A stretch of DNA of 64,000 bases from Clostridia bacterium (GTDB lineage Bacteria; Bacillota; Clostridia; TANB77; CAG-465): assembly GCA_045537895.1 (NCBI GenBank), contig JAZSQI010000005.1, forward strand, positions 60-64,059, given 5' to 3'. Under the pieces are notes generated by a model. That model had not been told where the DNA came from, ran no database searches, and saw only the letters and a program-made list of their open reading frames with translations. Of this stretch, positions 1 to 12,320 are shown piece by piece. Position 1 is the stretch's first letter, and the number at the start of each line of letters is the position of its first letter. The translations under genes and the position numbers were made by a program.

Positions 1-1085
1 TTTTCTTTACTAGCTTTTGCTATATCTACTGAACTTATTTTAATAATTTCATCCCAACTTTTCTTTATACGCATATTGGGAATTTTAATATCCGGTCTTT
101 CATTTTTTATATAATCTAATACATATTTATAATAAAAATCATTATATTCATTGTTTAAAACCTCAGCCTGCCTATTTAATTTAGGTAAAGCATCTATATA
201 TTTTTTCAAAAATGTCTCGTTTTGTAATATTACTGGATATATATTAATATTATCAAGTGTTTCTCCAATCTCCATAAATGTAACATCTGTTAATGACAAA
301 AAATAATCTGTTAACTCTTTATCTCTAAAAAACTTTGTTTGTGCATATGTAGGTAAAAATCTAACTGCATCCATAACCTTATAAAACTTAGATAAATTTT
401 CTTTTTTAGGTTCTAATTTTTTATCTATACTACCATAATAATAACGTGGCTGTATTGCATCCTCATTTTCTTTTTCACGAGATACCTCACCTTTATTTTC
501 GAAAGAATCAATAATACTTAAAAAACTACCATCATCCATACTTCTCAATAATTCTTCATCTGACATTGAAAATATTTCTTTCATAATCTCTCTATCTTTA
601 TCAGTTTGAATTACATTACCTTTAAGTTGATTATATTCTTTACTTTTATACTCTTTAAAATTATGATGCTTTATATTATGTATATCTATTACTTCCTCTT
701 GAATATCTCTTGGCAACCAATATAGCAATTTATCTAGAATAAAACTTTCAGCATGCCAGGAACCTTCCATATATGATTCCAATGATTCTAATAATTTTTC
801 TTTTGGTTCATTAGCTAACATTTCTTTTGCTATTTGCTCTTCAACTGTTAATGGTAATAAATCTTTTATTTGCTCTGGTTTTAATTCTAGTATTTCTGTT
901 GCAAGCATATCCTGCATCTCTATAGAAATCCCAGCCGAAACTTTTGGATGGTTTCTTATTTTCAATATTAATTCTATTTTCTTTTCTGACTTTACGTTTG
1001 GATTTTTTAATTCATTTACTAGTTCTTCTAATAATCCTAATATCTCTGGATCTTTATCAGAGAGATCAATAATTGGATTTATCAT
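1..1085 (-). CDS. hypothetical protein, runs off the window (3' end missing)
   Basis: Manually translated stop-free frame from ATG at 1085 (MINPIIDLSDKDPEILGLLEEL...) with AGGAGG RBS upstream; absent from the ORF track because no stop lies in the window. Confidence 0.8.
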   Translation of the reverse strand, partial: MINPIIDLSDKDPEILGLLEELVNELKNPNVKSEKKIELILKIRNHPKVSAGISIEMQDMLATEILELKPEQIKDLLPLTVEEQIAKEMLANEPKEKLLESLESYMEGSWHAESFILDKLLYWLPRDIQEEVIDIHNIKHHNFKEYKSKEYNQLKGNVIQTDKDREIMKEIFSMSDEELLRSMDDGSFLSIIDSFENKGEVSREKENEDAIQPRYYYGSIDKKLEPKKENLSKFYKVMDAVRFLPTYAQTKFFRDKELTDYFLSLTDVTFMEIGETLDNINIYPVILQNETFLKKYIDALPKLNRQAEVLNNEYNDFYYKYVLDYIKNERPDIKIPNMRIKKSWDEIIKISSVDIAKASKE

Positions 1086-1156
1086 TATTCTTTCCTCCTA
1101 AAAAACGCTCTTTATACTTATATATCATATATATATATTTTTTTCAAGTATTTCAT

Positions 1157-1404
1157 TTACATTTTGTTTTTTGTTTTTTCTTTGTAATTAGTTATTAGAT
1201 TAATAATTTCTTCTACCCTTTCTTTATCAGATATTATATTTTTTATCTTACTCTCAATATTGTTTAATTCTTTTTCCTGTGAATTGTATAATGTTTTAAA
1301 GAATCTTTTGTCTTTTTGTCAACTATACAGATTTGTTCTTGATGATCATATATAAAATTTAATATAATATATTTGTCATCCCATCTCGTTATTTTTTCTA
1401 ACAT
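1157..1404 (-). pseudogene. small frameshifted hypothetical gene
   Basis: AGGAGG RBS + ATG 1404 (MLEKITRWDDKYIILNFIYDHQEQ...) stops at 1264; a coding-like -1 frame (FKTLYNSQEKELNNIESKIK...) continues to 1157. Confidence 0.45.
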
Positions 1405-1494
1405 AATATTATTCCTCCTTATGATTATGTGTGATATTAACTCTCTTTAAATATATTGTCAGCATTTTTATTAAAGCTTATTAAATTTTTTGAA

Positions 1495-2065
1495 ACCCCT
1501 CATTCTGTCGTTTCGTTTATGGTAGTCTAGTATGTAGCAGCGCTACTGCAGATGCTGTTAAATTAATAACTTGTTCATACTTGCCCTAACTTTTTACATC
1601 TACATATCCACATTCAAACTTTGCCTCCTGACACTCTTTTATTATTGTGAGTTTTCGTTACGAGATCTCACCGACACATATAGTTTTAATAGACTCTTAA
1701 AACTACTGCGGGACACTTATTGCAACGGCTGACCAAACCTATCCCTTTATTATTTTACAACGAGTTTAAGGCATCTCTCGTATATAAAAAGCACCCATAG
1801 TTTTTTAACTATGAATACTCTTTGAAATATATAATTTTTTTACTTAAAAATGCTATTTTGCATTTTTACAGGAAGAGGGAGTTATACAAACTCCCATTAA
1901 CTGCCTAAAAGTGTAACTTTTAGCGTATTTCTATTTTTTTATGTGTATATCAAATAGATATACAATTTTTTGCCTATAAATTAACTTTTTTAATATAAAA
2001 TTAAGCCCAGAGAATAAACCTCTAGGCTGTTTAAATGACTCAAGGCTTCAAAAGTTTCTTGAGTA
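1495..2065 (-). ncRNA. candidate structured non-coding RNA / cis-element (unnamed)
   Basis: No long ORF, locally higher GC, chain of inverted repeats; the stem at ~1789-1820 pairs fully only with G-U wobbles on the minus strand. Confidence 0.35.
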
Positions 2066-2226
2066 CTAATCAATATATTTATAACATATTTTCATTATAA
2101 TTCCAAGATGTTTACTAAAAATTCAAATAAATTATGGATTATTTGTTTTATACTAATTCTTATATTTTTTCGCCACAAAATCGATTCTGTGCCCTTTTTA
2201 TTATTAAGTAAATAAATTTATACCCT

Positions 2227-2769
2227 TTACGTATAAATTAACATATCTTGTCCAATATATGATTTTAATTTTTCAAATCCTGAAACTGGTATTTGATTTG
2301 TCTTGCCTTCTAGCCAACCATATAATGTGCTTGCTGATATATTGCTTTTCTTTGCAAATTCTACATATGTTAAGTTATTCTCTGATATATATCTTTTTAT
2401 TATCTCTACTGGATTGTTTTTAATAAATTTAACATAGTCTGGTATATATTTTTCTTCCATATCAAGAATGTTTATTATCTTTTCTATTGTTGATATGCTA
2501 TTTAATCTTTTTTCATCAGTTTCATATCTATGATATGCATCTACAGAAATACCAATCTTACTTGCCATCTCTTTTAAACTATAACGTTTTAACATTCTAT
2601 AATAGACAATTGCATCAGAAAATTTATTTGTTAAAAGTAATTCTTTATTAGGTTTTTCTCTTGCATCCACATACACACTTTCATTTAAAACACCTTTATT
2701 TCTAAGCTTTCTAAATAAGTTACCTATATCTTTATATAATATAAATTGTTCTTTTTTATTTGTTGTCAT
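2227..2769 (-). CDS. double helix-turn-helix (XRE-like) DNA-binding protein, copy 2
   Basis: Two HTH motifs (SLKEMASKIGISVDAYHRYE; TYVEFAKKSNISASTLYGWLEG); paralog of 5926..6468. Confidence 0.8.
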   Translation of the reverse strand: MTTNKKEQFILYKDIGNLFRKLRNKGVLNESVYVDAREKPNKELLLTNKFSDAIVYYRMLKRYSLKEMASKIGISVDAYHRYETDEKRLNSISTIEKIINILDMEEKYIPDYVKFIKNNPVEIIKRYISENNLTYVEFAKKSNISASTLYGWLEGKTNQIPVSGFEKLKSYIGQDMLIYT

Positions 2770-2912
2770 CAGACCAGTGGAGCATCTGCCAAAATTCTAA
2801 CTGTCATTCCTACCAAATCTGCCATTTCATCATATATGTTAACTACTTTAAAAAGTACATCATATCCATAAGATTTTCTTGCTACTACATCTCCTACTTT
2901 TAGCTTTAACAT
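2769..2912 (-). pseudogene. yabG: 47-aa 5' fragment resembling sporulation peptidase YabG N-terminus, copy 2
   Basis: MLKLKVGDVVARKSYGYDVLFKVV...VRILADAPLV* matches the YabG N-terminal pattern (GD.V.RKSY..D..F ... R..ADAP); GAGGTG RBS; stop overlaps the HTH start (TGATG). Confidence 0.7.
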
Positions 2913-2920
2913 TAAAAATC

Positions 2921-2960
2921 ACCTCATATCATATTTTATGATATGAGGTTAAGGTTTGTT
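2921..2960 (-). promoter_or_regulatory. sigmaK-like promoter embedded in a 13-bp-arm palindrome
   Basis: AACA-N16-CATAAAATA on the minus strand (consensus mACm-N16-CATAnnnTA); perfect IR ACCTCATATCATA-ttt-TATGATATGAGGT. Confidence 0.55.
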
Positions 2961-3010
2961 AATTTTATGTGTTTTTATAATTTCATGATTTAAAATTTAT
3001 TTATACATAG

Positions 3011-3496
3011 TTATGTATCTAATTCATAATAATACAATATGTTTGTATCTGTATCAAAAATTGCAACAGTGTAATTATATGAATGTCTATCATATATTGC
3101 TTTTTCGTCATATTTATTCATTGCTTTACTATGTCTATCCAAGAAAAACCAATATCCGTTTTCTATGATTGGCAATTCCATATTATCACCAAATTTATCT
3201 ATTGTAACTTCTTCTTGAAGCTCTGCACTCATAGGGAGCTTATTCCAATGCTCATTCCCCTTTATTTTCTTTATAAATCTTTTTGCTTGTCTATTATTAA
3301 AATAGACTCTTGAATATATTTCACCATCCATATGAAATCCTGCATGTGTACCCTTATAGTACATCTCACAAGATAATGGTACATATATTCCTATATCCAT
3401 TGCTATCCTTCTATATTCACTAACTTTAAACTCTACTACAATTAATATTATTGCTATAGCTAATATGCTAATAAATATTATTAACTTCTTGTGCAT
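3011..3496 (-). CDS. membrane-anchored hypothetical protein B2 (putative immunity-like)
   Basis: N-terminal TM; THAGFHMDGE motif; C-terminus nearly identical to 6713..7201. Confidence 0.7.
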   Translation of the reverse strand: MHKKLIIFISILAIAIILIVVEFKVSEYRRIAMDIGIYVPLSCEMYYKGTHAGFHMDGEIYSRVYFNNRQAKRFIKKIKGNEHWNKLPMSAELQEEVTIDKFGDNMELPIIENGYWFFLDRHSKAMNKYDEKAIYDRHSYNYTVAIFDTDTNILYYYELDT

Positions 3497-3499
3497 ATT

Positions 3500-4527
3500 T
3501 TACACCTCTATATCAAAGTTTATATTAACTTCAAATTCATTTAAAACACCAGTTTTCATTGAAAAGTATGCAAAATTATATAATGAACTAGAGAAAATAC
3601 TCTTTTTCACATTTTCAGTAGCCTTAAAATATTCTTTAAGAGTTTTTAATTTTGTATAATCATAAACATCATATATGTTTATATTCAAATTCCATTTTCC
3701 ATTTTGCTTGTTTCCTTTTACTTTAAATTCTGCTTTGTTAATGGAATAAAACAAATCACTTTTACTTAGAACAATAGATGTATCTTCATTTATTTGGTTT
3801 TTATTTTTCTTCTCGTACTCTTGTATTATTTTATTTAATTCATCAACAAAAATTTTATCCGATTTTATTTTTTCTACCACTTTTCCTGATGTAAAATACA
3901 AATTTTCTGGCTTTTCTTTGAGTGAATGTTGCAATAAGTCAGCCGAAAAATCAAATCCAGCATATTTTCCTCCGACTTCAATTATAGATTGCCAAAAGGC
4001 ATATTGCATAGCTTTAGACATATCTTTCTTATATTGATTTTTATTTTTATAAAAATTAAATATAAAACTAGCACCTGTTACTAACAATTTGAATTCATTT
4101 ATATCAAGTTCACCATTTTTTACATTACTAATAAATTCTTCAAATTTGATTTGCATTTTATACAAATCATAAGCTTCTTTTAATATTATTTTCCTCACAC
4201 TTTTAATTTTTTCAAATATAGTTACTTTTTTGATGTTATTTATATCTTTATTTACTTGTTCCTTTATTTTATCAAAGTTGCCATATTTTAACATATCTAA
4301 ATATCTATATGTTAAGTATCTATCCGTAATCCATATCTTTTGATTTTTATTTAACCCTGTTATTCCTGTTTTCTGCATTACACTATTATATAACTCTTTT
4401 TCTTTATACTTTGATTTGCTAGGTTGTTCCAATTTAAGAAATGTATATATATATTATCTATACATCCATTACCAAATGTATCTTTACATTTTTTCATATC
4501 TCTTTTACAAAGCAGACACTCTTTCAT
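3500..4527 (-). pseudogene. gene A2, frameshifted by one extra TA in a (TA)n tract
   Basis: Start MKECLLCKRDMKKCKDTFGNGC at 4527 is identical to A1; (TA)5 at 4444-4453 versus (TA)4 in A1; span 1028 nt = 3n+2. Confidence 0.8.
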
Positions 4528-4597
4528 ATTATCACACTCCCACAACAAAATATTATATTTTTAATTTAAATCTCACCACACTATAAAACAAATATAT

Positions 4598-5644
4598 TTA
4601 GTTTTTAATATATTTGCTTGCTCTTGAAGAACCAATACGTCTTATTTTTCCATCCTTAACCATTTGTCCTAATACAGCTTCTACTGTAGTTGGACTAACA
4701 TCAGGAAGGACATTACATATTTCTGCTTTTGATATTGGAGTTAAACTATTCAATATTGTTGCCTCTATACGTTGTTTTTTAGTTATTTTTCCATTGTTTA
4801 CAACACTAAATCTCTTATCTAACTCTTTATAACACAAATATAGTGTTGATAAAAAATTTTCAATAAAAGGTACATATGTATTTTCATTATTCTCCCATCT
4901 TTTTGATGATTTTTCAAGAGAATCATAATAATATGCTTTATAGTTGTTTATTTGTTCCTCAAAAGAAACATATTTACCAACATCAAATCCACTCTTATAT
5001 AACAATAATAACGATAGTAATCTTGACATTCTACCATTTCCATCTCTAAATGGATGTATACTTAAAAAATCAAGTATAACGCATGGTATTAATAATAAAT
5101 GATTAATATTAGCATTACTTCTTGCATCCATATATGCAAGCACTAATTGTTCCATTGCTTTTGGTGTTTCTGCACTAGATGTTGGCTTAAAACGAATTCT
5201 TCTATTACCTTCTTGATCTATTTCTATAATATAATTGTCATTTTCCTTATATTTACCTGAAAATTCATAGTCACTATATGACATCATAATTTCATGCAAA
5301 GCTAATATATCCGATTCTTTAAAATCTAATTCCTTGTACCCTAAATGAATTTTATTTAGAGCATCTCTATAACCAGCTATTTCTTCTTCATTATGATTTA
5401 ATGGTTCTACATTTTGATTTACAATTTCTTTAATACGTTCATCACTTGTTACTATTCCCTCTATTGCATTTGAACTTTTTACAGATTGCACTATTGCTAT
5501 CTTCTCCAACTCAATAAATATTTTTTCATACTCATCTTTTCTAACCCCTGCCATAGTTTTTAAAGAATATATTGTACTTATCAAATTAACTAAATTAGCA
5601 GGTAATAGCCCATTATTTAAAAAAGAATAATCAAATTTTCTCAT
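4598..5644 (-). CDS. Fic family protein with C-terminal HTH
   Basis: HPFRDGNGRMSR Fic motif; SSNAIEG inhibitory-helix-like motif; start moved to MRKFDYSF (GGGGGAG RBS). Confidence 0.9.
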   Translation of the reverse strand: MRKFDYSFLNNGLLPANLVNLISTIYSLKTMAGVRKDEYEKIFIELEKIAIVQSVKSSNAIEGIVTSDERIKEIVNQNVEPLNHNEEEIAGYRDALNKIHLGYKELDFKESDILALHEIMMSYSDYEFSGKYKENDNYIIEIDQEGNRRIRFKPTSSAETPKAMEQLVLAYMDARSNANINHLLLIPCVILDFLSIHPFRDGNGRMSRLLSLLLLYKSGFDVGKYVSFEEQINNYKAYYYDSLEKSSKRWENNENTYVPFIENFLSTLYLCYKELDKRFSVVNNGKITKKQRIEATILNSLTPISKAEICNVLPDVSPTTVEAVLGQMVKDGKIRRIGSSRASKYIKN

Positions 5645-5656
5645 GTTACTCCCCCA

Positions 5657-5691
5657 TTTCTGCATATATTCTATCATTTTATATGCAGAAA
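5657..5691. promoter_or_regulatory. operator-like inverted repeat upstream of fic
   Basis: TTTCTGCATATA-N11-TATATGCAGAAA; further TATGCA half-sites to ~5752. Confidence 0.4.
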
Positions 5692-5925
5692 ATCAACGTT
5701 TAATGCATATGTTTTTAAATATTTTATGCAGCAAACCAGTTTATATGCAAAAAAACAAATATCAATATACATTTTTTCGGTTATTTATAGAGTTTTATAA
5801 TTTATTTTTACACTATTCTATTTTTGTATACTACTTATATTAGTATAATATATAAATATTTGTATGATAAAGGCACATAATCAATTGTGTGCCCTTTTTA
5901 TTATGAAGTAGATAAATTATACCCA

Positions 5926-6468
5926 TTACATATAAATTAGCGCATCTTGTCCGATATATGATTTTAATTTTTTAAATCCTGAAGATAATATTTGCTTTGT
6001 TTTTCCCTCTAACCAACCATATAATGTACTTGCTGATATATTACTTTTCTTTGCAAATTCTACATATGTTAAGTTATGCTTTGATATATATCCTTTTATT
6101 ATCTCTACTGGATTGTTTTTAATAAATTTAATATAGTATGGTATATATTTTTCTTCCATTTCAAGAACATTTACTATCCTTTCTATTGTTGATATGCTAT
6201 TTAATCTTTTTTCATCAGTTTCATATCTATGATATGCATCTGCAGAAATACCAACCTTACTTGCCATATCTTTTAAACTATAACGTTTTAACATTCTGTA
6301 ATAGATAATTGCATCAGAGAATTTATTTGTTAATAGTAATTCTTTATTAAGTTTTTCTCTAGTATCTACATATATACTTTCATTTAAAACACCTTTATTT
6401 CTAAGCTTTCTAAATAAATTACCTATATCTTTAAATAATATAAATTGTTCTTTTTTATTTGTTGTCAT
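5926..6468 (-). CDS. double HTH (XRE-like) protein, copy 1
   Basis: Two HTH motifs; highly similar to 2227..2769. Confidence 0.8.
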   Translation of the reverse strand: MTTNKKEQFILFKDIGNLFRKLRNKGVLNESIYVDTREKLNKELLLTNKFSDAIIYYRMLKRYSLKDMASKVGISADAYHRYETDEKRLNSISTIERIVNVLEMEEKYIPYYIKFIKNNPVEIIKGYISKHNLTYVEFAKKSNISASTLYGWLEGKTKQILSSGFKKLKSYIGQDALIYM

Positions 6469-6611
6469 CAGATCAGTGGCGCATCTGCCAAGATACGAAC
6501 TGTCATTCCTACCAAATCTGTCATTTCATCATATATATTAACTACTTTAAAAAGTACATCATATCCATAAGATTTTCTTGCTACTACATCTCCTACTTTT
6601 AACTTTAACAT
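6468..6611 (-). pseudogene. yabG: 47-aa YabG-like N-terminal stub, copy 1
   Basis: MLKLKVGDVVARKSYGYDVLFKVVNIYDEMTDLVGMTVRILADAPLI*; same RBS and TGATG coupling as copy 2. Confidence 0.7.
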
Positions 6612-6618
6612 TAAAAAT

Positions 6619-6659
6619 CACCTCATATCATAAAATATGATATGAGGTGTATTTTTGTT
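6619..6659 (-). promoter_or_regulatory. sigmaK-like promoter in palindrome, copy 1
   Basis: AACA-N16-CATATTTTA on the minus strand; IR CACCTCATATCATA-aaa-TATGATATGAGGTG. Confidence 0.55.
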
Positions 6660-6712
6660 AATTTTGTGAATTTATATAATGTAAATTAATTTCTTAATGC
6701 ATCTATTTATTA

Positions 6713-7201
6713 TTATGTGTCTAATTCATAATAATACAATATGTTTGTGTCTGTATCATAAATTGCAACAGTATAATTATATGAATATCTATCATATATT
6801 GCCTTTTCATCATATTTATTTATTGCTTCACTATTTCTATCAAGGAAAAACCAACATCCATTTTCTATTTCTGGAATTGTTATTTTGAAGTCATCTAAAT
6901 TAGAAATTACCCTTGTATATAGTCCGGAAGTAACAGGTAATTTTCTCCAATTTTTATTTTCATTTATTTGTTTCAAAAATATCTTTGCTTGAAAATCATT
7001 AAGATATATTTTATCTATTGACTCTCCGTCTCCGTGAAACCCTCCGTGCGTATCTTCGTACTTACTTCTTGTTAATAATGGTACCCACACTTCTAGCACT
7101 TTGCTCATTTCATATTTTCTTCCAAAAAGCAAATCCTGAATAATATATAGTATCATAAGTGATACTAAAATAAGCAAAACAACTTTTACTTTCTTTTTCA
7201 T
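6713..7201 (-). CDS. membrane-anchored hypothetical protein B1 (putative immunity-like)
   Basis: N-terminal TM, YEDTHGGFHGDGE motif; start overlaps the A1 stop. Confidence 0.75.
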   Translation of the reverse strand: MKKKVKVVLLILVSLMILYIIQDLLFGRKYEMSKVLEVWVPLLTRSKYEDTHGGFHGDGESIDKIYLNDFQAKIFLKQINENKNWRKLPVTSGLYTRVISNLDDFKITIPEIENGCWFFLDRNSEAINKYDEKAIYDRYSYNYTVAIYDTDTNILYYYELDT

Positions 7202-8250
7202 TATTCCTCCACCTTATAATTTTCAATTTTAAATTTTATATCTACACAATATTCTTTTACGACTCCTAATTTTGTTGATATAAATGCCAAATTATATAAA
7301 GTGCTCGAAAAAATACTTTTTAATATACTGTTTGCATCAAAATAATAGTCATCAAAACTTTTCCATTTTGTATAATCATATTTATCAGTTATATGAACAC
7401 TTATATCCCATATGTTGTCATGTTTTTTTATAGCACTAACATGCATTGTTCCGCCATGAATTGAAAAATACAAATCACTATTATCAAATTGAACGTGCTC
7501 ACCTTTTAATGTAAATTTAGACTTGTTAATATTATTTTTTATTATTTCTTTAATTTGCTTCTTGAAACTATTATCATTATTTATATCTTCAATTATTTTA
7601 CCATCTGTTATGTACAAATCTTTAGGCTCTTCTTTTAATGAATGCTTTAATAATTCAGCAGAAAATTCAAATCCAACATATCTCCTACCAACTTCTATTA
7701 CCGTTTGCCAAAACGCGTATTGCATTTCTTTGATAGCATCTTGCTCATACTGCTTTTTATTTATTTGCATATTAAATATAAAACTAAAACTTGTTAATAA
7801 TAGTTTTATTTTTGAATCCCAATTTTCTACCATCTTTAAATCTAATAATTCTTTTATTTTCTTTTTGAATTTGTTTTCTTTTTTATATAAATCGTAACTT
7901 TCTTTTAGTGTTATTTTCTTCAAGCTTTTTAAATTTGATTCCTTTTGAACACTTTTTATATTTTCTATATCTAAAGTTATACTTTTCTTTAATTTAGTAA
8001 AATCACCATACTTTAATGAATCTAAATATTTATATGTTAAGTATCTATCTGTAAGCCATATCTTTTGATTTTTATTTAATCCTCCTATTCCTGTTTTATT
8101 TATTACACTATTATATAACTCTTTTTCTTTATATTTTGCTTTACTTGGTTTTTCTAGTTTGAGAAATGTATATATATTATTTATACATCCATTCCCAAAT
8201 GTATCTTTACATTTTTTCATATCCCTTTTACAAAGCAAACACTCTTTCAT
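7201..8250 (-). CDS. hypothetical protein A1 (N-terminal Cys cluster, variable C-terminus)
   Basis: CxxC...C...C N-terminus; GGAGG RBS; paralog of A2. Confidence 0.75.
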   Translation of the reverse strand: MKECLLCKRDMKKCKDTFGNGCINNIYTFLKLEKPSKAKYKEKELYNSVINKTGIGGLNKNQKIWLTDRYLTYKYLDSLKYGDFTKLKKSITLDIENIKSVQKESNLKSLKKITLKESYDLYKKENKFKKKIKELLDLKMVENWDSKIKLLLTSFSFIFNMQINKKQYEQDAIKEMQYAFWQTVIEVGRRYVGFEFSAELLKHSLKEEPKDLYITDGKIIEDINNDNSFKKQIKEIIKNNINKSKFTLKGEHVQFDNSDLYFSIHGGTMHVSAIKKHDNIWDISVHITDKYDYTKWKSFDDYYFDANSILKSIFSSTLYNLAFISTKLGVVKEYCVDIKFKIENYKVEE

Positions 8251-8272
8251 TATATCCCTCCTAGTTTATGAT

Positions 8273-9463
8273 TTATACTTTACCTAATAGCCAATCTAAA
8301 ACATTTATTTTCTTTATACCATCAAAATCTGCTATTGGATCTAAATCCATAGTAAGTATATATTTGGGGTAATTATCATTAATTTCTTGTAACGACCTTA
8401 ATTCTCTCTCAAGTGTTGATTCTTCTCTTGTTGTATATGCTACTTGAAAATATGTAAATCCGTCTTTGTTTTCAGCTATAAAATCTATTTCTTTTTCTCC
8501 AGTCTTTCCTATATATACTTTATACCCTCTTCGTATAAGTTCAAAGTATACAATATTTTCTAGTATGCGACCTATATCTAAATTTCTTCTACCTAAAAGT
8601 GCATATCTCATAGTAACATCTGTTGCATAATATTTTTCTCCTGATTGTAAATACTGTTTCCCTTTTACATCGAATCTTTGAGCTTTACTAAATATGTAAC
8701 TATCTACTAGTGCTTCCAAATAACTTTCCACAGTATGAACAGATATGGATCTTCCATCAGATGTTAATGTATCAGCTATTTTTTTTATAGATAACGAATT
8801 ACCTATATTATCAAACATAAACTTAGTAACAGTTTTTAACATCGTTACATCGGCTATCTTTTTCCTTTGTATAATATCTCTTACTATTATTGTATTATAT
8901 AGCGCTTCTAAGTAATCGTCTATTTCTGACTCATTTTCCAATTGTAACGCATATGGAAATGAGCTTTTGTTGATATAATTAAGATAATCTCTCTCATTTC
9001 CCTGCACATTACAGTAATCAACATATTCTTTAAAAGATAATGGATACATTTTTATCTCTACATATCTTCCTGATAATAATGTCGCTAATTCACCAGATAA
9101 CAAATAAGCATTAGACCCTGTTATATAAATATCCACATTCTTTATTATATATAATCCATCAACTGCTTTTTGGAAATTATCCACATTCTGAACTTCATCA
9201 AGAAACACATAATATTCTTTTTCATCTTTTATTTGATTTTTTACAAATTTATACAATTCTTTATAATCTGCAAACTCGTATTCTGGATTTTCAAAATTTA
9301 TTGATATGATATGATCTTCTTCTACTCCTATACCTTTCAAATAGTCAATATATAATGTAAACAATGTGGATTTGCCAGATCTTCTTATGCCTGTTACTAC
9401 CTTTATCAAATCTTTATCTTTCCACTTTTTTAATTTTTCTATATATTTATTTCTTTCTACCAT
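8273..9463 (-). CDS. AAA+ ATPase (AAA_14/DUF4143 type)
   Basis: GIRRSGKS Walker A, FLDEVQ Walker B, TGSN, C-terminal EIDF...QV motif; start at MVERNKY with GGAGG RBS. Confidence 0.85.
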   Translation of the reverse strand: MVERNKYIEKLKKWKDKDLIKVVTGIRRSGKSTLFTLYIDYLKGIGVEEDHIISINFENPEYEFADYKELYKFVKNQIKDEKEYYVFLDEVQNVDNFQKAVDGLYIIKNVDIYITGSNAYLLSGELATLLSGRYVEIKMYPLSFKEYVDYCNVQGNERDYLNYINKSSFPYALQLENESEIDDYLEALYNTIIVRDIIQRKKIADVTMLKTVTKFMFDNIGNSLSIKKIADTLTSDGRSISVHTVESYLEALVDSYIFSKAQRFDVKGKQYLQSGEKYYATDVTMRYALLGRRNLDIGRILENIVYFELIRRGYKVYIGKTGEKEIDFIAENKDGFTYFQVAYTTREESTLERELRSLQEINDNYPKYILTMDLDPIADFDGIKKINVLDWLLGKV

Positions 9464-9692
9464 ATTATTTCCTCCAATAATATTATACATCACCAAAAAC
9501 AAATTTGCAACACATTGCAAATTATTTTGTTAAATTTACAAAATTTGCAACGTCGTACAAAAAATATCATATACATTTTAATAAAATTACATTTATAGTT
9601 TTTATCCTTAAACTAATACATCTTATCCAATATATGATTTCTTGGAAAATACAAAAATAGAGCACAGCAATAATCAACTGTACTCTAAATAC

Positions 9693-12320
9693 TTACATAT
9701 TCTTTAAACTTTCTTCTATCTTCTCTAATATTTCAGTATATTTTTTTACTTTTTCCTTTTCTCCTGCTATAAGCTTTTCTGGTGCTTTTGCAACAAACGA
9801 TTCGTTTGAAAGCATTTTATTTGCTCTTGCAAGCTCATTTTCTGCTTTTTTCTTTTCTTCTAATAATTTTTCTCTTTCTTTATCTTTGTCTATTACAGAA
9901 GATAAATCTAAGTATGCATCTATATTTTGTGTATGCATTGCTGTCATATTTACTATCTTGCTTGCATCTACACTGTTTAATATTTCTAAATTCTCTATAC
10001 ATGCCATCTTGCATATCATATCTCTTGATTTAGAAATTGTATCTGCAAAGTTTTTACTTACTATTATAGCATTTGCTTTTTTGCTATTTGGAATATTATT
10101 CTCAGCTCTAACATTTCTTATTTGTCTTATAAGCTCAAGCTCTTCATCAACAAGTTTTTTATCTTCACTAAAATTATATTCTTCTTTTACGGCTGGCCAT
10201 TTTGATATCATTATGCTTTCATCATTATGTTTTAAATTCATATATATTTCTTCTGTTATAAATGGCATATATGGATGTAATAATTTTAATGTATTAGAAA
10301 GTGCATAATTAAGTACGCTCACTGCCTCTTTATACCCTTCGTTGCTTTCGTCATAAAGTCTTGGCTTGCACATTTCTATATACACGTCACATATATCTGA
10401 CCACATAAAATCATATATTATTTGAAGTGCAACACCTATTTCATAGTTTGAAATATTATCTGTTACCTCTTTAATAACTGAGTTTAATTTTGTTAATAAC
10501 CATTTATCTTCAGGCATAAGTTTGCTTACGTCAATGTTCACATTATCAACTTTTTCAATGTAGCTAAGTGCAAATCTTGCAGCATTCCATATCTTATTTG
10601 CAAAGTTTGCTCCTGCTTCTACTTTTTCTTTCATATATCTTATATCATTTCCGGCAGATATATTTTGAGTAAGAGAAAATCTTAACGCATCTGTACCATA
10701 CTCATCTATAACTTCAAGTGGATCAACACCGTTACCCAAAGATTTAGACATCTTTCTTCCTTGTGAATCACGAACTAAACCATGTATATACACATCTTTA
10801 AATGGTACTTTTCCAGTATGCTCAATTGCACTAAATATCATTTTACTTACCCAGAATGTTATAATATCATAACCTGTAACTAGCATTGTTGTTGGGTAAA
10901 AATACTCAAAATCCTCTGTCTTTTCTGGCCAACCCAATGTTGAAAATGGCCATAATGCTGAACTAAACCAAGTATCTAATGTATCTTCATCTTGATACAT
11001 ATGCTGGCTGTTACATTTTGGACAAACTTCTACTTTATTTGCTGATACTTCTACGTGCTTACATTCAGAACAATGATATGCAGGTATTCTATGTCCCCAC
11101 CATAATTGTCTTGAAATACACCAGTCTTTTATATTTTCCATCCAGTTAAAATATATCTTCTCAAATCTTTCAGGTACAAATCTAACTTCACCATTTCTAA
11201 CAGCTTCTATAGCTGGCTCTGCTAACTGTTTCATACTAACAAACCATTGCTTTGATGCATAAGGTTCTACTGTTGAATTACATCTATAACAGCTACCAAC
11301 ATTATGTTTATATGGTTCTACTTTTATTAAATTCCCTAATTTTTCTAAATCTTCAACAATAGCTTTTCTTGCATCTTCTCTAGTCATACCAGAATATCTT
11401 CCATAGCCTTCAACTATTGTAGCATCTTCGTTCATAACATTTATTACTGGAAGATTATGTCTTAATCCAACTTCAAAATCGTTTGGATCATGTGCTGGAG
11501 TTATCTTAACTACACCAGTTCCGAAATCCATTTCAACATATTCATCTGCTACTATTGGAATAGGTCTATTTACTATTGGTAGTATTACATTTTTACCAAC
11601 GAATTCTTTGTATCTTTCATCTTCAGGATGAACTGCAACAGCTGTATCTCCTAAAAGAGTTTCAGGTCTTGTTGTTGCTATTTCAATGTATTTATCTGTT
11701 CCTTCTATTTGATATCTAATATGCCAGAAGAAAGAATCTTGTTCTTCATATTCTACTTCATTATCTGATATAGATGTTTTACATTTAGGACACCAGTTAA
11801 CTATTCTTTCTCCTCTGTATATTAAGCCTTTTTCATATAGCTTTATAAATACATGTTCAACTGCTTTGGTTAGTCCTTCATCCATTGTAAATCTTTCTCT
11901 TGACCAATCACAAGAAGAACCTAATTTTTTAAGTTGTTCTAGTATTCTTCCACCATATTTTTCTTTCCATGCCCAAGCTTCCTCTAAAAATCCTTCTCTT
12001 CCAAGTTCCTCCTTAGTTTTTCCTTCTGCTTTTAATTTTTCAACTACTTTATTCTCTGTAGCTATACTTGCATGGTCTGTTCCTGGAAGCCAAAGTGTTT
12101 CTTTCCCAAGCATTCTATTATATCTTACAAATATATCTTGTATAGTTTCATCCAAGGCATGTCCCATATGTAATTGTCCTGTTACATTTGGTGGTGGTAT
12201 AACTATTGTAAAAGGCTCCTTTTCTTTATTTACACTTGCCTTAAAATATCCTTTTTCTGTCCAATTATTATATATTCTATCCTCTATATCATGAGGATTA
12301 TATCTACTATTCATATTCAT
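9693..12320 (-). CDS. valS: valine--tRNA ligase
   Basis: PPPNVTG-LHMGHAL (HIGH), KMSKS, DWCISRQLWWGH, C-terminal coiled coil. Confidence 0.97.
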   Translation of the reverse strand: MNMNSRYNPHDIEDRIYNNWTEKGYFKASVNKEKEPFTIVIPPPNVTGQLHMGHALDETIQDIFVRYNRMLGKETLWLPGTDHASIATENKVVEKLKAEGKTKEELGREGFLEEAWAWKEKYGGRILEQLKKLGSSCDWSRERFTMDEGLTKAVEHVFIKLYEKGLIYRGERIVNWCPKCKTSISDNEVEYEEQDSFFWHIRYQIEGTDKYIEIATTRPETLLGDTAVAVHPEDERYKEFVGKNVILPIVNRPIPIVADEYVEMDFGTGVVKITPAHDPNDFEVGLRHNLPVINVMNEDATIVEGYGRYSGMTREDARKAIVEDLEKLGNLIKVEPYKHNVGSCYRCNSTVEPYASKQWFVSMKQLAEPAIEAVRNGEVRFVPERFEKIYFNWMENIKDWCISRQLWWGHRIPAYHCSECKHVEVSANKVEVCPKCNSQHMYQDEDTLDTWFSSALWPFSTLGWPEKTEDFEYFYPTTMLVTGYDIITFWVSKMIFSAIEHTGKVPFKDVYIHGLVRDSQGRKMSKSLGNGVDPLEVIDEYGTDALRFSLTQNISAGNDIRYMKEKVEAGANFANKIWNAARFALSYIEKVDNVNIDVSKLMPEDKWLLTKLNSVIKEVTDNISNYEIGVALQIIYDFMWSDICDVYIEMCKPRLYDESNEGYKEAVSVLNYALSNTLKLLHPYMPFITEEIYMNLKHNDESIMISKWPAVKEEYNFSEDKKLVDEELELIRQIRNVRAENNIPNSKKANAIIVSKNFADTISKSRDMICKMACIENLEILNSVDASKIVNMTAMHTQNIDAYLDLSSVIDKDKEREKLLEEKKKAENELARANKMLSNESFVAKAPEKLIAGEKEKVKKYTEILEKIEESLKNM

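What the first reader, a model, noticed from the sequence alone, without database searches (positions are those of the whole stretch)
2227..6659. Two sigmaK-promoter/yabG stubs, cut at the same codon and coupled to double-HTH genes: a possible cassette array at a sporulation gene
Seen: two 47-codon ORFs (2769-2912, 6468-6611) missing from the ORF track. Both end right after ADAPL, and each stop overlaps the ATG of a double-HTH gene (TGATG). Each follows AACA-N16-CATAnnnTA. The stubs differ by 5 synonymous and 2 non-synonymous codons, consistent with alleles of a selected protein. Known: the pattern matches the YabG N-terminus; yabG is sigmaK-dependent in B. subtilis; excisable elements interrupt mother-cell genes (skin in sigK, SPbeta in spsM). 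Inference: the ADAPL junction is an att site. The 3.7-kb unit between the junctions (HTH-fic-A2-B2-stub) would be a recombinase-less cassette carrying its own yabG 5' end. Accreted cassettes could be excised during sporulation to rebuild yabG, with the sigmaK-driven HTH acting as regulator or directionality factor.
Basis: partly seen in the sequence, partly recalled or inferred. Interest (0 to 1): 0.8.

Follow-up and report, generated by a model that had tools for sequence, protein, structure and literature searches.

The report
Split yabG gene with severed integrase
The sporulation protease gene yabG of this gut Clostridia genome is cut in two by a mobile element whose own integrase gene is also cut by the insertion, so that the integrase's tail piece ends up behind the yabG promoter, and an older copy of the same junction sits 3.7 kb upstream.

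Summary
Both 47-codon ORFs are true YabG N-termini (Pfam PF05582, 42.5 and 41.3 bits against a cut-off of 25). The missing 3' part of yabG lies on another contig of the same genome (C8), directly after a 591-aa large serine recombinase (LSR). Joining either stub to it at the shared core GCAGATGCNCCA gives an in-frame YabG colinear with the intact orthologues. Three same-genus genomes have intact yabG between valS and the same ABC gene, so empty sites exist. The same architecture (stub, HTH, ..., LSR, yabG 3' part) lies on a single contig in a related genus, where the element is a conjugative element.

New point: the inferred attP lies inside the integrase ORF. In the circular form the LSR would read in frame into the double-HTH gene (772 codons). 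Natural fused LSR-HTH proteins exist, and both fused and severed forms of one integrase occur in metagenomes. A complex model supports binding of the severed piece to the integrase (0.62 against 0.00 in controls).

The two stubs are two attL-type junctions in tandem. The upstream 3.7-kb unit is more likely a relic or a duplication than a self-integrating cassette. Excision during sporulation is not shown.

The parts
6468..6611 (-). yabG 5' stub, copy 2 (47 codons; the last 2 codons and the stop come from the element's P' arm)
   Evidence: PF05582 positions 1-46, E 1.5e-10. Colinear with the intact YabG of G003/G004/G005 up to ...RILADAP.
6458..6512 (-). attL2: host arm, 12-nt core GCAGATGCGCCA (6488-6477), P' arm ATCTGATGACAA (6473-6462)
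   Evidence: The core is identical (12/12) to the attR core on C8. The P' arm is a perfect 12-nt inverted repeat of the P arm at the recombinase 3' end.
6619..6658 (-). yabG promoter region, copy 2: sigmaK-like AC-N17-CATAnnnTA (6658-6631), lying inside a 14-bp-stem palindrome (6649-6619) that also holds the ribosome-binding site
   Evidence: Regular-expression match. Terminator-like hairpin. Conserved upstream of the intact yabG in G003 and G004.
5926..6468 (-). HTH2: 180-aa double-HTH protein whose start overlaps the stub2 stop (TGATG)
   Evidence: HTH_3 E 4.3e-11. 87.7% identical to HTH1. In frame with the recombinase ORF in the inferred attP form.
4598..5677 (-). Fic-family gene (359 aa, HPFxxGNGR motif present). 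It is the only gene of the 3.7-kb unit that is not duplicated.
   Evidence: PF02661 E 6.1e-15. Translation. It lies between the two repeat copies.
3500..4548 (-). A2: paralogue of A1, in two frames in this assembly. The break lies at a TA run near 4444.
   Evidence: 50% identical to A1. Contigs of runs X1 (part of the depth) and X4 lack 2 letters at 4444. The two frames differ by 2, so those versions are in one frame.
3011..3496 (-). B2: small protein with an N-terminal membrane helix, paralogue of B1
   Evidence: 49-58% identical to B1. No Pfam family.
2921..2959 (-). yabG promoter region, copy 1: sigmaK-like motif (2959-2932) inside a 13-bp-stem palindrome (2949-2921)
2769..2912 (-). yabG 5' stub, copy 1
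   Evidence: PF05582 positions 1-46, E 6.3e-11.
2759..2813 (-). attL1: core GCAGATGCTCCA (2789-2778, 11/12 to attR), P' arm GTCTGATGACAA (2774-2763, 11/12 to the P arm)
2227..2769 (-). HTH1: 180-aa double-HTH protein, the severed C-terminal module of the integrase
   Evidence: HTH_3 E 1.1e-12. In frame with the recombinase in the attP form, giving 772 codons. Complex model with the recombinase scores ipSAE 0.62 against a best control of 0.00, with the interface at HTH residues 8-41.
1..2226 (-). Left-end interior of the element. It runs off the contig 59 nt before window position 1.
   Evidence: Positions 1167-1786 are 77-91% identical to C2:42041-42735, beside a conjugation-gene region of a second element in the same genome.
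6713..8250 (-). A1 (7201-8250) and B1 (6713-7201): the upstream copy of the A-B pair, on the valS side of attL2

Best explanation
**What it is.** yabG, a mother-cell sporulation protease gene, is interrupted after codon 45 (...ADAP) by an integrated mobile element of the skin / SPbeta / yin kind.
- The window holds the left junction twice (attL1 and attL2).
- The right junction (attR), the large serine recombinase (LSR, 591 aa) and the rest of yabG lie on contig C8 of the same genome.

**How it would work.**
- Recombination of attR with either attL at the core GCAGATGCNCCA would rebuild an in-frame yabG and release a circle.
- The element's attP lies inside its own integrase ORF. In the circle the integrase is one 772-codon ORF: LSR core plus a C-terminal double-HTH module.
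- Integration severs that module. It then lies behind the yabG promoter and the first 45 yabG codons, with the stop and the start overlapping (TGATG). The TGATG is itself part of the attP arm.
- Inferred, about 0.4: when the sigmaK-type yabG promoter fires, the free HTH module is made and docks back on the truncated integrase at the zinc-ribbon domain and coiled-coil base. This switches excision on, so the target gene's own promoter times its repair.

**The two stubs.** They are two attL junctions in tandem. The upstream unit (HTH2, Fic, A2, B2, promoter, stub1) is most likely one of two things:
- the left-end relic of an earlier element, kept after yabG was restored by imported DNA and then invaded again; or
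- a segmental duplication across attL.

**Shown:** the split gene, the att sites, the LSR, the empty sites, the frame fusion and the natural fused and severed forms.

**Inferred:** excision in the mother cell, the role of the HTH module, and the history of the duplication.
For: **The split gene**
- The stubs hit PF05582 positions 1-46.
- In the own genome, PF05582 positions 40-280 match at C8:13117-13881 with 289.8 bits and no stops.
- The 591-aa ORF directly upstream has Resolvase, Recombinase and Zn_ribbon_recom domains.
- That ORF carries every one of the invariant residues of a 41-sequence alignment, including Y10, S11, R12 and four zinc-ribbon Cys.

**The junctions**
- The attR core is identical to attL2 (12/12) and 11/12 to attL1.
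- The frame is continuous across the join, and the product is colinear with the intact YabG of G003, G004 and G005 (...RILADAP|IYDLK...).
- The inferred attP has 12-nt perfect inverted repeats 22 nt apart. G016 has the same layout with 13 of 14 positions matching.
- Only these three sites in the 1.34-Mb genome carry the core plus arms.

**Empty sites**
- G003, G004 and G005 (same genus) have valS, intact yabG and the ABC276 orthologue in that order.

**The same architecture elsewhere**
- G016 has, on one 127-kb contig, the stub, an HTH gene overlapping it, 30 kb of element, an LSR 55% identical and the yabG 3' part.
- The 30 kb encode a T4SS coupling protein, a VirB4-like ATPase, a relaxase, ArdC, RepA_N and ParB.
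- G041 and G077 also have this LSR (57%) beside the yabG 3' part.

**The frame fusion**
- The recombinase ORF joined at the core to either attL reads 772 codons to the first stop. In G016 it reads 824.

**Natural fused forms**
- 3 of the 120 best recombinase homologues are 780-782 aa and carry HTH_3 domains: P0162, P0168 and P0182, each 56% identical.
- P0148 (716 aa) and P0018 are also fused.
- In metagenome contigs, L108 and L118 carry the fused ORF (719 aa).
- L110, L111, L112, L119 and L121 carry the same integrase, cut at the same point and followed by an ABC-ATPase gene end.
- L107 (fused) and L106 (cut) form a second such pair.

**Complex model**
- ipSAE was 0.62, the median of runs scoring 0.62, 0.61 and 0.66. 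The best of 3 controls scored 0.00.
- In the tool's calibration the mark was reached by 58 of 80 solved complexes and by 2 of 110 mismatched pairs. My own alignments were used, so those counts hold only roughly.
- The runs agree in at least 88% of contacts, and the partner's pLDDT is at least 77.
- The interface covers recombinase residues 368-369, 395-425, 500-511 and 536-566, and HTH residues 8-41.
- That HTH segment holds the family's most conserved motif.

**Parallels in the literature**
- In SPbeta, sprB lies beside the 5' gene fragment and sprA beside the 3' fragment. The two flank attP in the circle, and sprB depends on SigK/SigE (PMC8270828, passages read).

**Sporulation capacity of the host**
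- The genome has Spo0A and SpoIIID matches above their cut-offs, and an unbroken sigK-like gene.
Against: - No read or contig shows the rebuilt yabG or the circle. Only assembled contigs of four runs could be laid, and none joined the junctions.
- The element is not assembled end to end, and C13 and C8 share no end overlap. Their linkage rests on synteny with relatives and on the att sites.
- Engineered integrase-RDF fusions favour excision (PMC11722253 section 4; PMC12286644 passages). The natural fused form must be able to integrate, so the HTH module cannot be a classical RDF when it acts in cis.
- A conserved 52-59-aa ORF lies directly upstream of the recombinase in 4 of 4 elements at this site (G000, G016, G041, G077). 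It has the size of known RDFs and was not tested.
- The same LSR-HTH family sits in non-sporulation genes: a RhuM-like gene in L061 and L062, and ABC transporter genes in L111 and P0027. Placing the HTH behind the target promoter is therefore a family trait, not a sporulation adaptation.
- HTH1 and HTH2 differ at 23 non-synonymous against 14 synonymous codons, which suggests relaxed constraint on at least one copy.
- yabG is frameshifted in two same-genus genomes, G001 and G002. The elements of G041 and G077 have lost the HTH, and their stubs or cores are degenerate. Permanent loss of yabG therefore does occur in this family.
Confidence: 0.8

Rival explanations
1. Dead insertion. The element no longer excises, yabG is permanently broken in this organism, and the stubs and the HTH genes are relics without function.
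For: - yabG is frameshifted in the same-genus genomes G001 and G002.
- The elements in G041 and G077 have lost the HTH gene. The G041 attL core is degenerate and the G077 stub is frameshifted.
- No excised form was seen (contigs only).
- The ratio of non-synonymous to synonymous differences between HTH1 and HTH2 is high.
Against: - Every part needed is intact here: the LSR has all invariant residues.
- The attR and attL2 cores match 12/12 and the inverted-repeat arms are perfect.
- Both yabG parts are open. The 3' part is 86-89% identical to the orthologues over 246 aa.
- The stub differences are mostly synonymous, 5 of 7 codons.
Confidence: 0.12
2. The 3.7-kb unit (HTH2, Fic, A2, B2, promoter, stub1) is a recombinase-less mobile cassette. 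It integrates at the ADAP site and brings a replacement yabG promoter and 5' end, so the site is regenerated and cassettes pile up.
For: - The two junctions lie in the same register 3699 nt apart.
- G019 has the matching picture: a stub plus HTH, 5 kb of remnants, then a yabG whose 5' end is whole. The 204-nt duplicate there is 99% identical.
- A second duplicated junction lies at the other insertion site of G019.
- The stub alleles share codon variants with different species. Codon 39 is AGA in stub1, as in G004, G001 and G002, but CGT in stub2, as in G003. This points to different origins.
Against: - The circle of such a cassette would carry an attL-type site (host arm plus P' arm), not an attP. 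By what is known of large serine recombinases (recalled; the general scheme is in the PMC11722253 abstract), attL does not recombine with attB.
- A-B homologues occur in 8 of 79 family genomes and are not beside yabG in any of the 7 other genomes that have them.
- Contigs of runs X2 and X3 join 2063 to 3011 with 85 other letters between. So A2-B2 (99% identical) exists without the stub1-HTH1 module.
- No contig joins 6468 to 2769.
Confidence: 0.1
3. The free HTH protein is the element's transcription regulator, an Xre-type repressor or activator made in active form only after integration, as in integration-dependent immunity. It is not a factor that acts on the integrase.
For: - It has two HTH_3/Xre-type DNA-binding domains.
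- The same arrangement occurs behind non-sporulation target genes.
- In mycobacteriophages with integration-dependent immunity, attP lies inside the repressor gene and integration changes the repressor (PMC9262239, passages read).
- A separate small ORF that could be the RDF lies beside the recombinase.
Against: - Behind a sigmaK-type promoter a maintenance repressor would be made only late in the mother cell, where it serves no purpose.
- The model places the contact in the N-terminal 41 residues, outside the HTH domains, on the integrase region where RDFs bind.
- That segment is kept in G077 although the HTH domains are gone.
- The two roles do not exclude each other.
Confidence: 0.3
4. No mobile element is involved. 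The stubs are an independent small-protein family or a plain tandem duplication beside an intact yabG elsewhere.
For: The two units do form a 2.4-kb direct repeat.
Against: - The only other yabG match in the genome lacks exactly the part that the stubs supply, and it abuts an LSR.
- The join is in frame and colinear with the orthologues.
- The same split occurs on one contig in G016.
Confidence: 0.02

Closest known systems
SPbeta prophage in spsM of Bacillus subtilis (SprA integrase, SprB directionality factor)
   Same: - A mother-cell gene is split.
- The large serine integrase gene lies at the margin beside the 3' fragment, and the partner gene lies at the other margin beside the 5' fragment.
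- The two genes flank attP in the circle.
- The partner gene is under SigK/SigE control (PMC8270828, passages read).
   Different: - Here the two genes form one ORF in the circle, because attP lies inside it.
- The partner is a 180-aa double-HTH protein, not a 58-aa protein.
- It has no visible promoter of its own. It is translationally coupled to the target gene's stub and driven by the target's promoter.
- In G016 the element is a conjugative element, not a phage.
yin element in yabG of Clostridium botulinum V73 (Douillard et al. 2023, PMC10747680; abstract and passages read)
   Same: - The target gene is the same.
- It has a serine recombinase with Resolvase, Recombinase and Zn-ribbon domains, and a short repeat at attL and attR.
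- Excision restores yabG and gives a circle; this was shown there by PCR.
   Different: - There the recombinase lies beside the 5' part of yabG, and a 53-aa RDF was proposed.
- The authors state that the element was found in no other strain or species.
- Here the LSR lies beside the 3' part, and the integrase ORF is severed by integration.
- Here the site recurs in several genera of another family, and there are two left junctions.
- The position of the yin site within yabG was not compared, because the paper's figures and supplements were not available to me.
skin elements in sigK (SpoIVCA; CD1231/CD1234 in Clostridioides difficile)
   Same: [quoted passage not shown] Excision is confined to the mother cell and controlled by an RDF (PMC5025042, abstract seen in a listing).
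   Different: The target differs, and no severing of the recombinase ORF is described there.
Integration-dependent immunity of mycobacteriophages (attP inside the repressor gene; PMC9262239, passages read)
   Same: attP lies inside a coding sequence, so integration changes the protein that is made and thereby the state of the element.
   Different: - Those systems use a tyrosine integrase and a tRNA target.
- The gene that is cut is the repressor, which loses a degradation tag.
- Here the integrase itself is cut, and the cut-off part is re-expressed from the host gene's promoter.
Engineered integrase-RDF fusions and split integrases (PMC11722253 section 4; PMC12286644 passages)
   Same: A C-terminal partner tethered to an LSR, acting at DBD2 and the coiled-coil base.
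   Different: Those are man-made and drive excision. The natural fused form here must support integration.
gin element in gerE of Bacillus cereus (PMC5595907; abstract seen in a listing only)
   Same: A gene-intervening element in a sporulation gene that is not prophage-like.
   Different: It was not compared in detail.

Membership tests
Sporulation gene-intervening element (skin / SPbeta / yin kind) | A sporulation gene is split into a 5' and a 3' part that together are colinear with the intact orthologues | tested here: met
   PF05582 positions 1-46 (the stubs) and 40-280 (C8). The alignment with G003, G004 and G005 is continuous across ADAP|IYDL.
Sporulation gene-intervening element (skin / SPbeta / yin kind) | [quoted passage not shown] | tested here: met
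   A 591-aa LSR ends 8 nt before the yabG 3' ORF on C8.
Sporulation gene-intervening element (skin / SPbeta / yin kind) | A common core at both junctions, with inverted repeats around it | tested here: met
   A 12-nt core. The inferred attP has 12-nt perfect inverted repeats. G016 shows the same, with 13 of 14 positions matching.
Sporulation gene-intervening element (skin / SPbeta / yin kind) | Related genomes have the uninterrupted gene at the same locus | tested here: met
   G003, G004 and G005 have valS, yabG and the ABC gene in that order.
Sporulation gene-intervening element (skin / SPbeta / yin kind) | Excision in the mother cell during sporulation rebuilds the gene | not testable with these tools
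   Only assembled contigs of 4 metagenome runs could be laid, and no junction was seen.
Sporulation gene-intervening element (skin / SPbeta / yin kind) | A directionality factor under sporulation control | tested here: inconclusive
   The HTH gene lies behind a sigmaK-like motif, and the complex model supports binding. Function was not tested, and a second candidate of 53 aa was left untested.
Large serine recombinase | Resolvase catalytic domain with the nucleophile serine, plus a recombinase domain, plus a zinc ribbon with a coiled-coil insert | tested here: met
   PF00239 at 1.4e-31, PF07508 at 9.3e-15 and PF13408 at 9.5e-13. Y10, S11, R12 and C352, C355, C379, C390 are invariant in 41 sequences. 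The coiled coil itself was not examined.
Integrative conjugative element | Relaxase, coupling protein and type IV secretion ATPase inside the element | tested here: inconclusive
   Met for the G016 element. In G000 only the two ends are assembled. Their DNA and one protein resemble a second element on C2 that holds such genes.
Integration-dependent switch (attP inside a coding sequence) | attP lies within an ORF, so the integrated and free forms encode different proteins | tested here: met
   The in-silico join gives 772 and 824 codons. Natural fused and severed versions of one integrase exist: L108 and L118 against L110, L111, L112, L119 and L121.
Accreted recombinase-less cassettes (cis-mobilisable elements; a recalled concept, not taken from any call) | A unit without a recombinase, bounded by sites that the resident recombinase can recombine | tested here: not met
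   The unit lacks a recombinase, but both of its borders are attL-type. No excised or single-junction form was seen.

The most novel reading that the evidence does not exclude
This would be a natural split-integrase switch. Integration cuts the element's integrase into a core and a C-terminal module, and hands the module to the promoter of the gene it has just broken. The module is made only when that promoter fires, here a sigmaK-type promoter late in the mother cell. It then re-associates with the core at the coiled-coil base and licenses excision. The interrupted gene would thus time its own repair with no separate sensor. The tandem junctions would then offer two alternative excision end points, and so two yabG 5' alleles and promoter contexts.
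Probability: 0.3. Interest if true: 0.85.

Novelty: new variant of a known kind. Interest (0 to 1): 0.7.

Why it matters
Gene-intervening elements in sporulation genes are a textbook case of programmed DNA rearrangement. For yabG, however, the literature I could search holds a single case, which its authors say is unique to one strain (PMC10747680).

This analysis adds four things.
- yabG is a recurrent target in a whole family of small-genome gut Clostridia.
- It is hit at about four codon positions, by at least two LSR types that are only about 21-23% identical (a third and fourth, in G047 and G024, match both at 22-27%).
- The pieces lie far apart or on different contigs in 9 of 79 genomes.
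- At least one of the elements is a conjugative element.

The attP inside the integrase ORF would be a new way to couple the state of an element to its integrase. I found no description of it in three full-text searches.

If the severed module controls excision, it would be a compact natural design for promoter-gated, self-reversing DNA switches built from serine integrases.

Tried and rejected
- Contig-end overlaps between C13, C8 and all other contigs: none of 15-150 nt. The element could not be closed.
- Laying the contigs of runs X1-X4 on window 1-10000:
  - No joint from 6468 to 2769 appears among the joints listed.
  - No loose end at either att core appears among the 24 loose ends shown (327 more were not shown).
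  - These are contigs only, so this says nothing about rare excised forms.
  - One X4 contig ends at 2774, at the attL1 core. I draw nothing from that.
- Search for longer proteins containing HTH1: no hit among 1105 candidates (the tool itself calls this weak evidence). The fused forms were found later by the profile search and the recombinase search.
- Metagenome scan with the fused protein P0182: 270 pattern matches, none confirmed.
- Plasmid and phage collections searched with P0182: 0 of 94 and 0 of 102 matching records cover 80% or more of the fused protein.
- Earlier findings of this scan: nothing on this genome fitted.
- Protein atlas search for A1: best score 0.88, with weak leads to DUF3289, DUF6402 and Colicin_M clusters, all below 0.9. 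These are leads only.
- The exact crossover dinucleotide: the dyad axes of the inferred attP and attB differ by one base, so I place the crossover only within GCAGATGC.
- The history of the duplication was not resolved. Relic plus re-invasion, in-situ duplication followed by allele exchange, and the cassette model all remain open.
[quoted passage not shown] 2021) is known to me only from reference lists, and its text was not available.
- Supplements of PMC10747680 (the att sequences of yin) were closed.

Full report
**1.

On the minus strand the window encodes two 47-codon ORFs, at 2769-2912 and 6468-6611. Both match the first 46 positions of the Pfam model of YabG peptidase (PF05582). The scores are 42.5 and 41.3 bits against a curated cut-off of 25, with E-values of 6.3e-11 and 1.5e-10.

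Each stop overlaps the ATG of a 180-aa protein with two Xre-type HTH domains. The stubs differ at 5 synonymous and 2 non-synonymous codons.

A sigmaK-like AC-N16/17-CATAnnnTA motif precedes both stubs. It also precedes the intact yabG genes of three same-genus genomes and the stub of G016, so 6 of the 8 upstream regions scanned have it. That is a consensus match, not a test of promoter activity.

**2. The other half of yabG**

A search of the window's own genome (49 contigs, 1.34 Mb) with PF05582 gave three matches: the two stubs, and C8:13117-13881 covering profile positions 40-280 at 289.8 bits with no stops.

Directly upstream on the same strand lies a 591-aa ORF (C8:13856-15631) with Resolvase, Recombinase and Zn_ribbon_recom domains. 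It carries all residues that are invariant in an alignment of 41 relatives.

- The recombinase gene ends inside the sequence ...GGTGCAGATGCGCCAATATATGA....
- Stub2 ends ...TTGGCAGATGCGCCACTGATCTGATG, and stub1 has GCT in place of GCG.
- Joining a stub to C8 within the shared 12-nt core keeps the frame. The product reads ...RILADAP|IYDLKLMGPDE..., colinear with the intact YabG of G003, G004 and G005 (...RILADAPIYDLKIMSPDE...).

**3. Empty sites and synteny**

In the same-genus genomes G003, G004 and G005 an intact yabG lies between valS and the orthologue of the ABC ATPase gene that follows the yabG 3' part on C8. Contigs C13 (valS and the stubs) and C8 (yabG 3' part and the ABC gene) are therefore the two sides of one locus. 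The DNA between them is an insertion.

**4. The att sites**

The left arm of attR (in the recombinase 3' end) reads TTGTCATCAGAT. The right arm of attL2 (in the HTH start) reads ATCTGATGACAA. These form a perfect 12-nt inverted repeat, 22 nt apart, around the core. attL1 matches 11 of 12 positions.

Only these three places in the genome carry the core with its arms.

**5. The same element elsewhere**

G016 belongs to another genus of the family. On one 127-kb contig it has:
- a stub;
- an overlapping HTH gene, 33% identical to HTH1;
- 30 kb of element;
- an LSR 55% identical;
- the yabG 3' part.

The core and the arm layout are the same. Its 30 kb encode a T4SS coupling protein, a VirB4-like ATPase, a relaxase, ArdC, RepA_N and ParB, so it is a conjugative element.

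G041 and G077 also have this LSR (57%) beside the yabG 3' part. Both have lost the HTH gene, and their sites are degenerate.

In G000 only the two ends of the element are assembled. They resemble a second element on contig C2 that holds conjugation genes.

**6. yabG is a hot spot in this family**

Across the 79 genomes of the family, 77 have a YabG match. In 9 of them the pieces lie more than 1 kb apart or on different contigs.

| Approximate profile position | Genomes |
|---|---|
| 46 | G000, G016, G041, G077 |
| 245 | G019, G022, G054 |
| 160 | G047 |
| 110 | G024 |

- The position-245 element of G019 and G054 has a different LSR, 21-23% identical.
- G019 also has an extra stub plus HTH at the position-46 site, upstream of a yabG whose 5' end is whole.
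- A further dozen genomes have adjacent or overlapping pieces. Apart from G001, G002, G012 and G083, I did not inspect these.

**7. The integrase gene is itself cut**

Reading the recombinase ORF through the core into the DNA after either attL gives an open frame of 772 codons that runs into and through the HTH gene. In G016 the same join gives 824 codons.

This architecture exists in nature.
- 3 of the 120 best homologues of the recombinase are 780-782 aa with C-terminal HTH domains (P0162, P0168, P0182; 56% identical).
- A profile of the HTH family also finds P0148 (716 aa, complete LSR plus HTH) and P0018.
- Among 79 metagenome loci with relatives of the recombinase, L108 and L118 carry a fused 719-aa ORF.
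- L110, L111, L112, L119 and L121 carry the same integrase, identical up to ...GATGGTAGA. After that point there are a few foreign codons, a stop and the end of an ABC-ATPase gene.
- L107 (fused) and L106 (cut) form a second such pair.

Many homologues share ...LSSEKGSRC followed by unrelated tails. The codons of (S)RC spell the core GCAGATGC.

So in this LSR family attP lies inside the integrase ORF, between the LSR core and a C-terminal double-HTH module, and integration severs the two. Relatives sit in other genes as well: a RhuM-like gene in L061 and L062, and ABC transporter genes.

I found no description of this arrangement in three full-text searches. The nearest concept is integration-dependent immunity, where attP lies in a phage repressor gene (PMC9262239, passages read).

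**8. Does the severed module act on the integrase?**

A complex model of the 591-aa integrase with HTH1, both given as alignments, supports binding.
- ipSAE was 0.62, the median of three runs. The best of three controls scored 0.00.
- The mark was reached by 58 of 80 solved complexes and by 2 of 110 mismatched pairs in the tool's calibration. Those counts hold only roughly for my own alignments.
- The runs agree in at least 88% of contacts, and the partner's pLDDT is at least 77.
- The contact involves HTH residues 8-41, which precede the HTH domains and hold the family's most conserved motif.
- On the integrase it involves residues 368-369, 395-425, 500-511 and 536-566, that is, the zinc-ribbon domain and the segments flanking the coiled coil.
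- In SPbeta integrase the RDF binds this same general region (PMC11722253, section 4).

The interface is also what one expects if it simply mirrors the packing inside the uncut protein.

The layout parallels SPbeta. There sprB (next to the 5' fragment, SigK/SigE-dependent) and sprA (next to the 3' fragment) flank attP (PMC8270828, passages read).

My reading, at about 0.4: the yabG promoter supplies the missing module in the mother cell, and this licenses excision.

Four points count against it.
- Engineered integrase-RDF fusions favour excision, whereas the natural fused form must integrate.
- A conserved 52-59-aa ORF next to the recombinase (4 of 4 elements) is an untested classical RDF candidate.
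- The arrangement also occurs at non-sporulation targets.
- HTH1 and HTH2 differ by more non-synonymous than synonymous codons.

**9. Why two stubs?**

The repeat is 2174-4533 against 5874-8256. Each copy holds A, B, the promoter, a stub, an HTH gene and a terminator. Only the Fic gene lies between the copies.

Divergence is mosaic: 92-97% identity over stub plus HTH, and 40-65% in the middle of the A-B pair.

- Both junctions are attL-type.
- The stubs are each other's nearest relatives, with 7 differences in 135 nt against 14-16 to G003. Yet they carry codon variants shared with different species.
- A-B pairs are sporadic accessory genes. They occur in 8 of 79 genomes, with a third copy on C6, and are never beside yabG elsewhere.
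- Contigs of two other runs join B2 (99% identical) to the DNA after HTH1 without the 947-nt promoter-stub1-HTH1 module.
- G019 shows a comparable picture: a stub plus HTH, then remnants and an IS, then a 204-nt 99% duplicate of promoter plus stub that continues into yabG.

I rank the explanations as follows.
1. Relic of an earlier element, left after yabG was restored by imported DNA and invaded again: about 0.45.
2. Segmental duplication across attL, followed by allele exchange in A-B: about 0.35.
3. Its circle would carry an attL-type site, which by the usual LSR rules (recalled) does not recombine with attB.

Whatever the history, attR can in principle pair with either attL. That would give two excision products and two yabG 5' alleles.

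**10. What is not shown**

- No excised form was seen, and only contigs could be laid.
- The element is not closed.
- The organism has Spo0A, SpoIIID and an unbroken sigK-like gene, but sporulation itself is inferred.
- yabG is frameshifted in two same-genus genomes, so a dead insertion remains possible (about 0.12).

**11. Verdict**

This is a real, well-supported gene-intervening element in yabG. It is a new variant of a known kind. The new features are the severed integrase ORF with its module behind the target promoter, the tandem left junctions, the conjugative nature of the element, and the recurrence of yabG as a target in this family.

Noticed in passing
window 3011-4548 and 6713-8250; G000:C6:2988-4022: A-B gene pairs. 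A is about 349 aa with an N-terminal CxxC...C...C motif and no Pfam family. B is about 161 aa with an N-terminal membrane helix. The two pairs have conserved outer ends and a highly diverged middle (the A C-terminus plus the B N-terminus), like a polymorphic toxin-immunity-type module. There are three copies in this genome, A homologues occur in 8 of 79 family genomes, and G084 has tandem copies. The atlas gives only weak leads: DUF3289, DUF6402 and Colicin_M, all under 0.9.
   Followed up: partly
window about 4441-4454: A TA-dinucleotide run at the break between the two frames of A2. Contigs of run X4, and part of the depth of X1, lack 2 letters at 4444, which puts the two parts in one frame. 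G077 has the same kind of split in its A homologue. This may be slipped-strand phase variation.
   Followed up: partly
window 2921-2949 and 6619-6649: A perfect 13-14-bp-stem palindrome just before each stub's start codon. Its loop holds the CATAnnnTA motif and its 3' arm holds the ribosome-binding site, and a T-run follows. It is conserved before the intact yabG of G003 and G004, so it is a host feature. It could be an operator, an insulating terminator or a translational hairpin.
   Followed up: partly
G000:C2:6780-8636 (L057 3780-5636): A second LSR (554 aa) with the same 52-aa and 140-aa upstream genes. Its 3' end abuts a 5' fragment of an alpha/beta-type SASP gene (PF00269, E 2.9e-6, profile positions 1-26 of 59). 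The C2 region at 43-60 kb holds conjugation genes related to the G016 element. Another sporulation-related gene may therefore be interrupted.
   Followed up: partly
L025 (G019:C1:157000-176500): yabG carries two different insertions at once: a stub-HTH relic at the position-46 site and a second LSR element at about position 245. The second site also has a duplicated junction, 119 nt at 92%. A DDE transposase gene lies directly upstream of the yabG copy.
   Followed up: partly
L030, L031 (G001, G002); many rows: yabG is in adjacent, out-of-frame pieces in the same-genus genomes G001 and G002, and in about ten other family genomes. This points to frequent decay of yabG in this reduced-genome family. 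Some rows show only TAG stops inside the match, which was not looked into.
   Followed up: no
L024 13350-13375 (G016, about 75 nt upstream of the attR core): A second copy of a core-plus-P'-arm-like sequence lies inside the 3' end of the G016 recombinase gene. It may be the trace of an older site.
   Followed up: no
window 4598-5677 and 8273-9520: An intact Fic-family gene with a C-terminal winged-helix region lies between the repeat copies. An AAA_14/DUF4143 ATPase gene lies between valS and A1. The valS-yabG interval varies among same-genus genomes, at 0.6, 3.4 and 5.3 kb.
   Followed up: no
L043 (G083:C36:6699-7593): yabG has a one-base frame shift exactly at the att core (...ADAPRI*), with no insertion. 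This could be an excision scar or a sequencing error.
   Followed up: no
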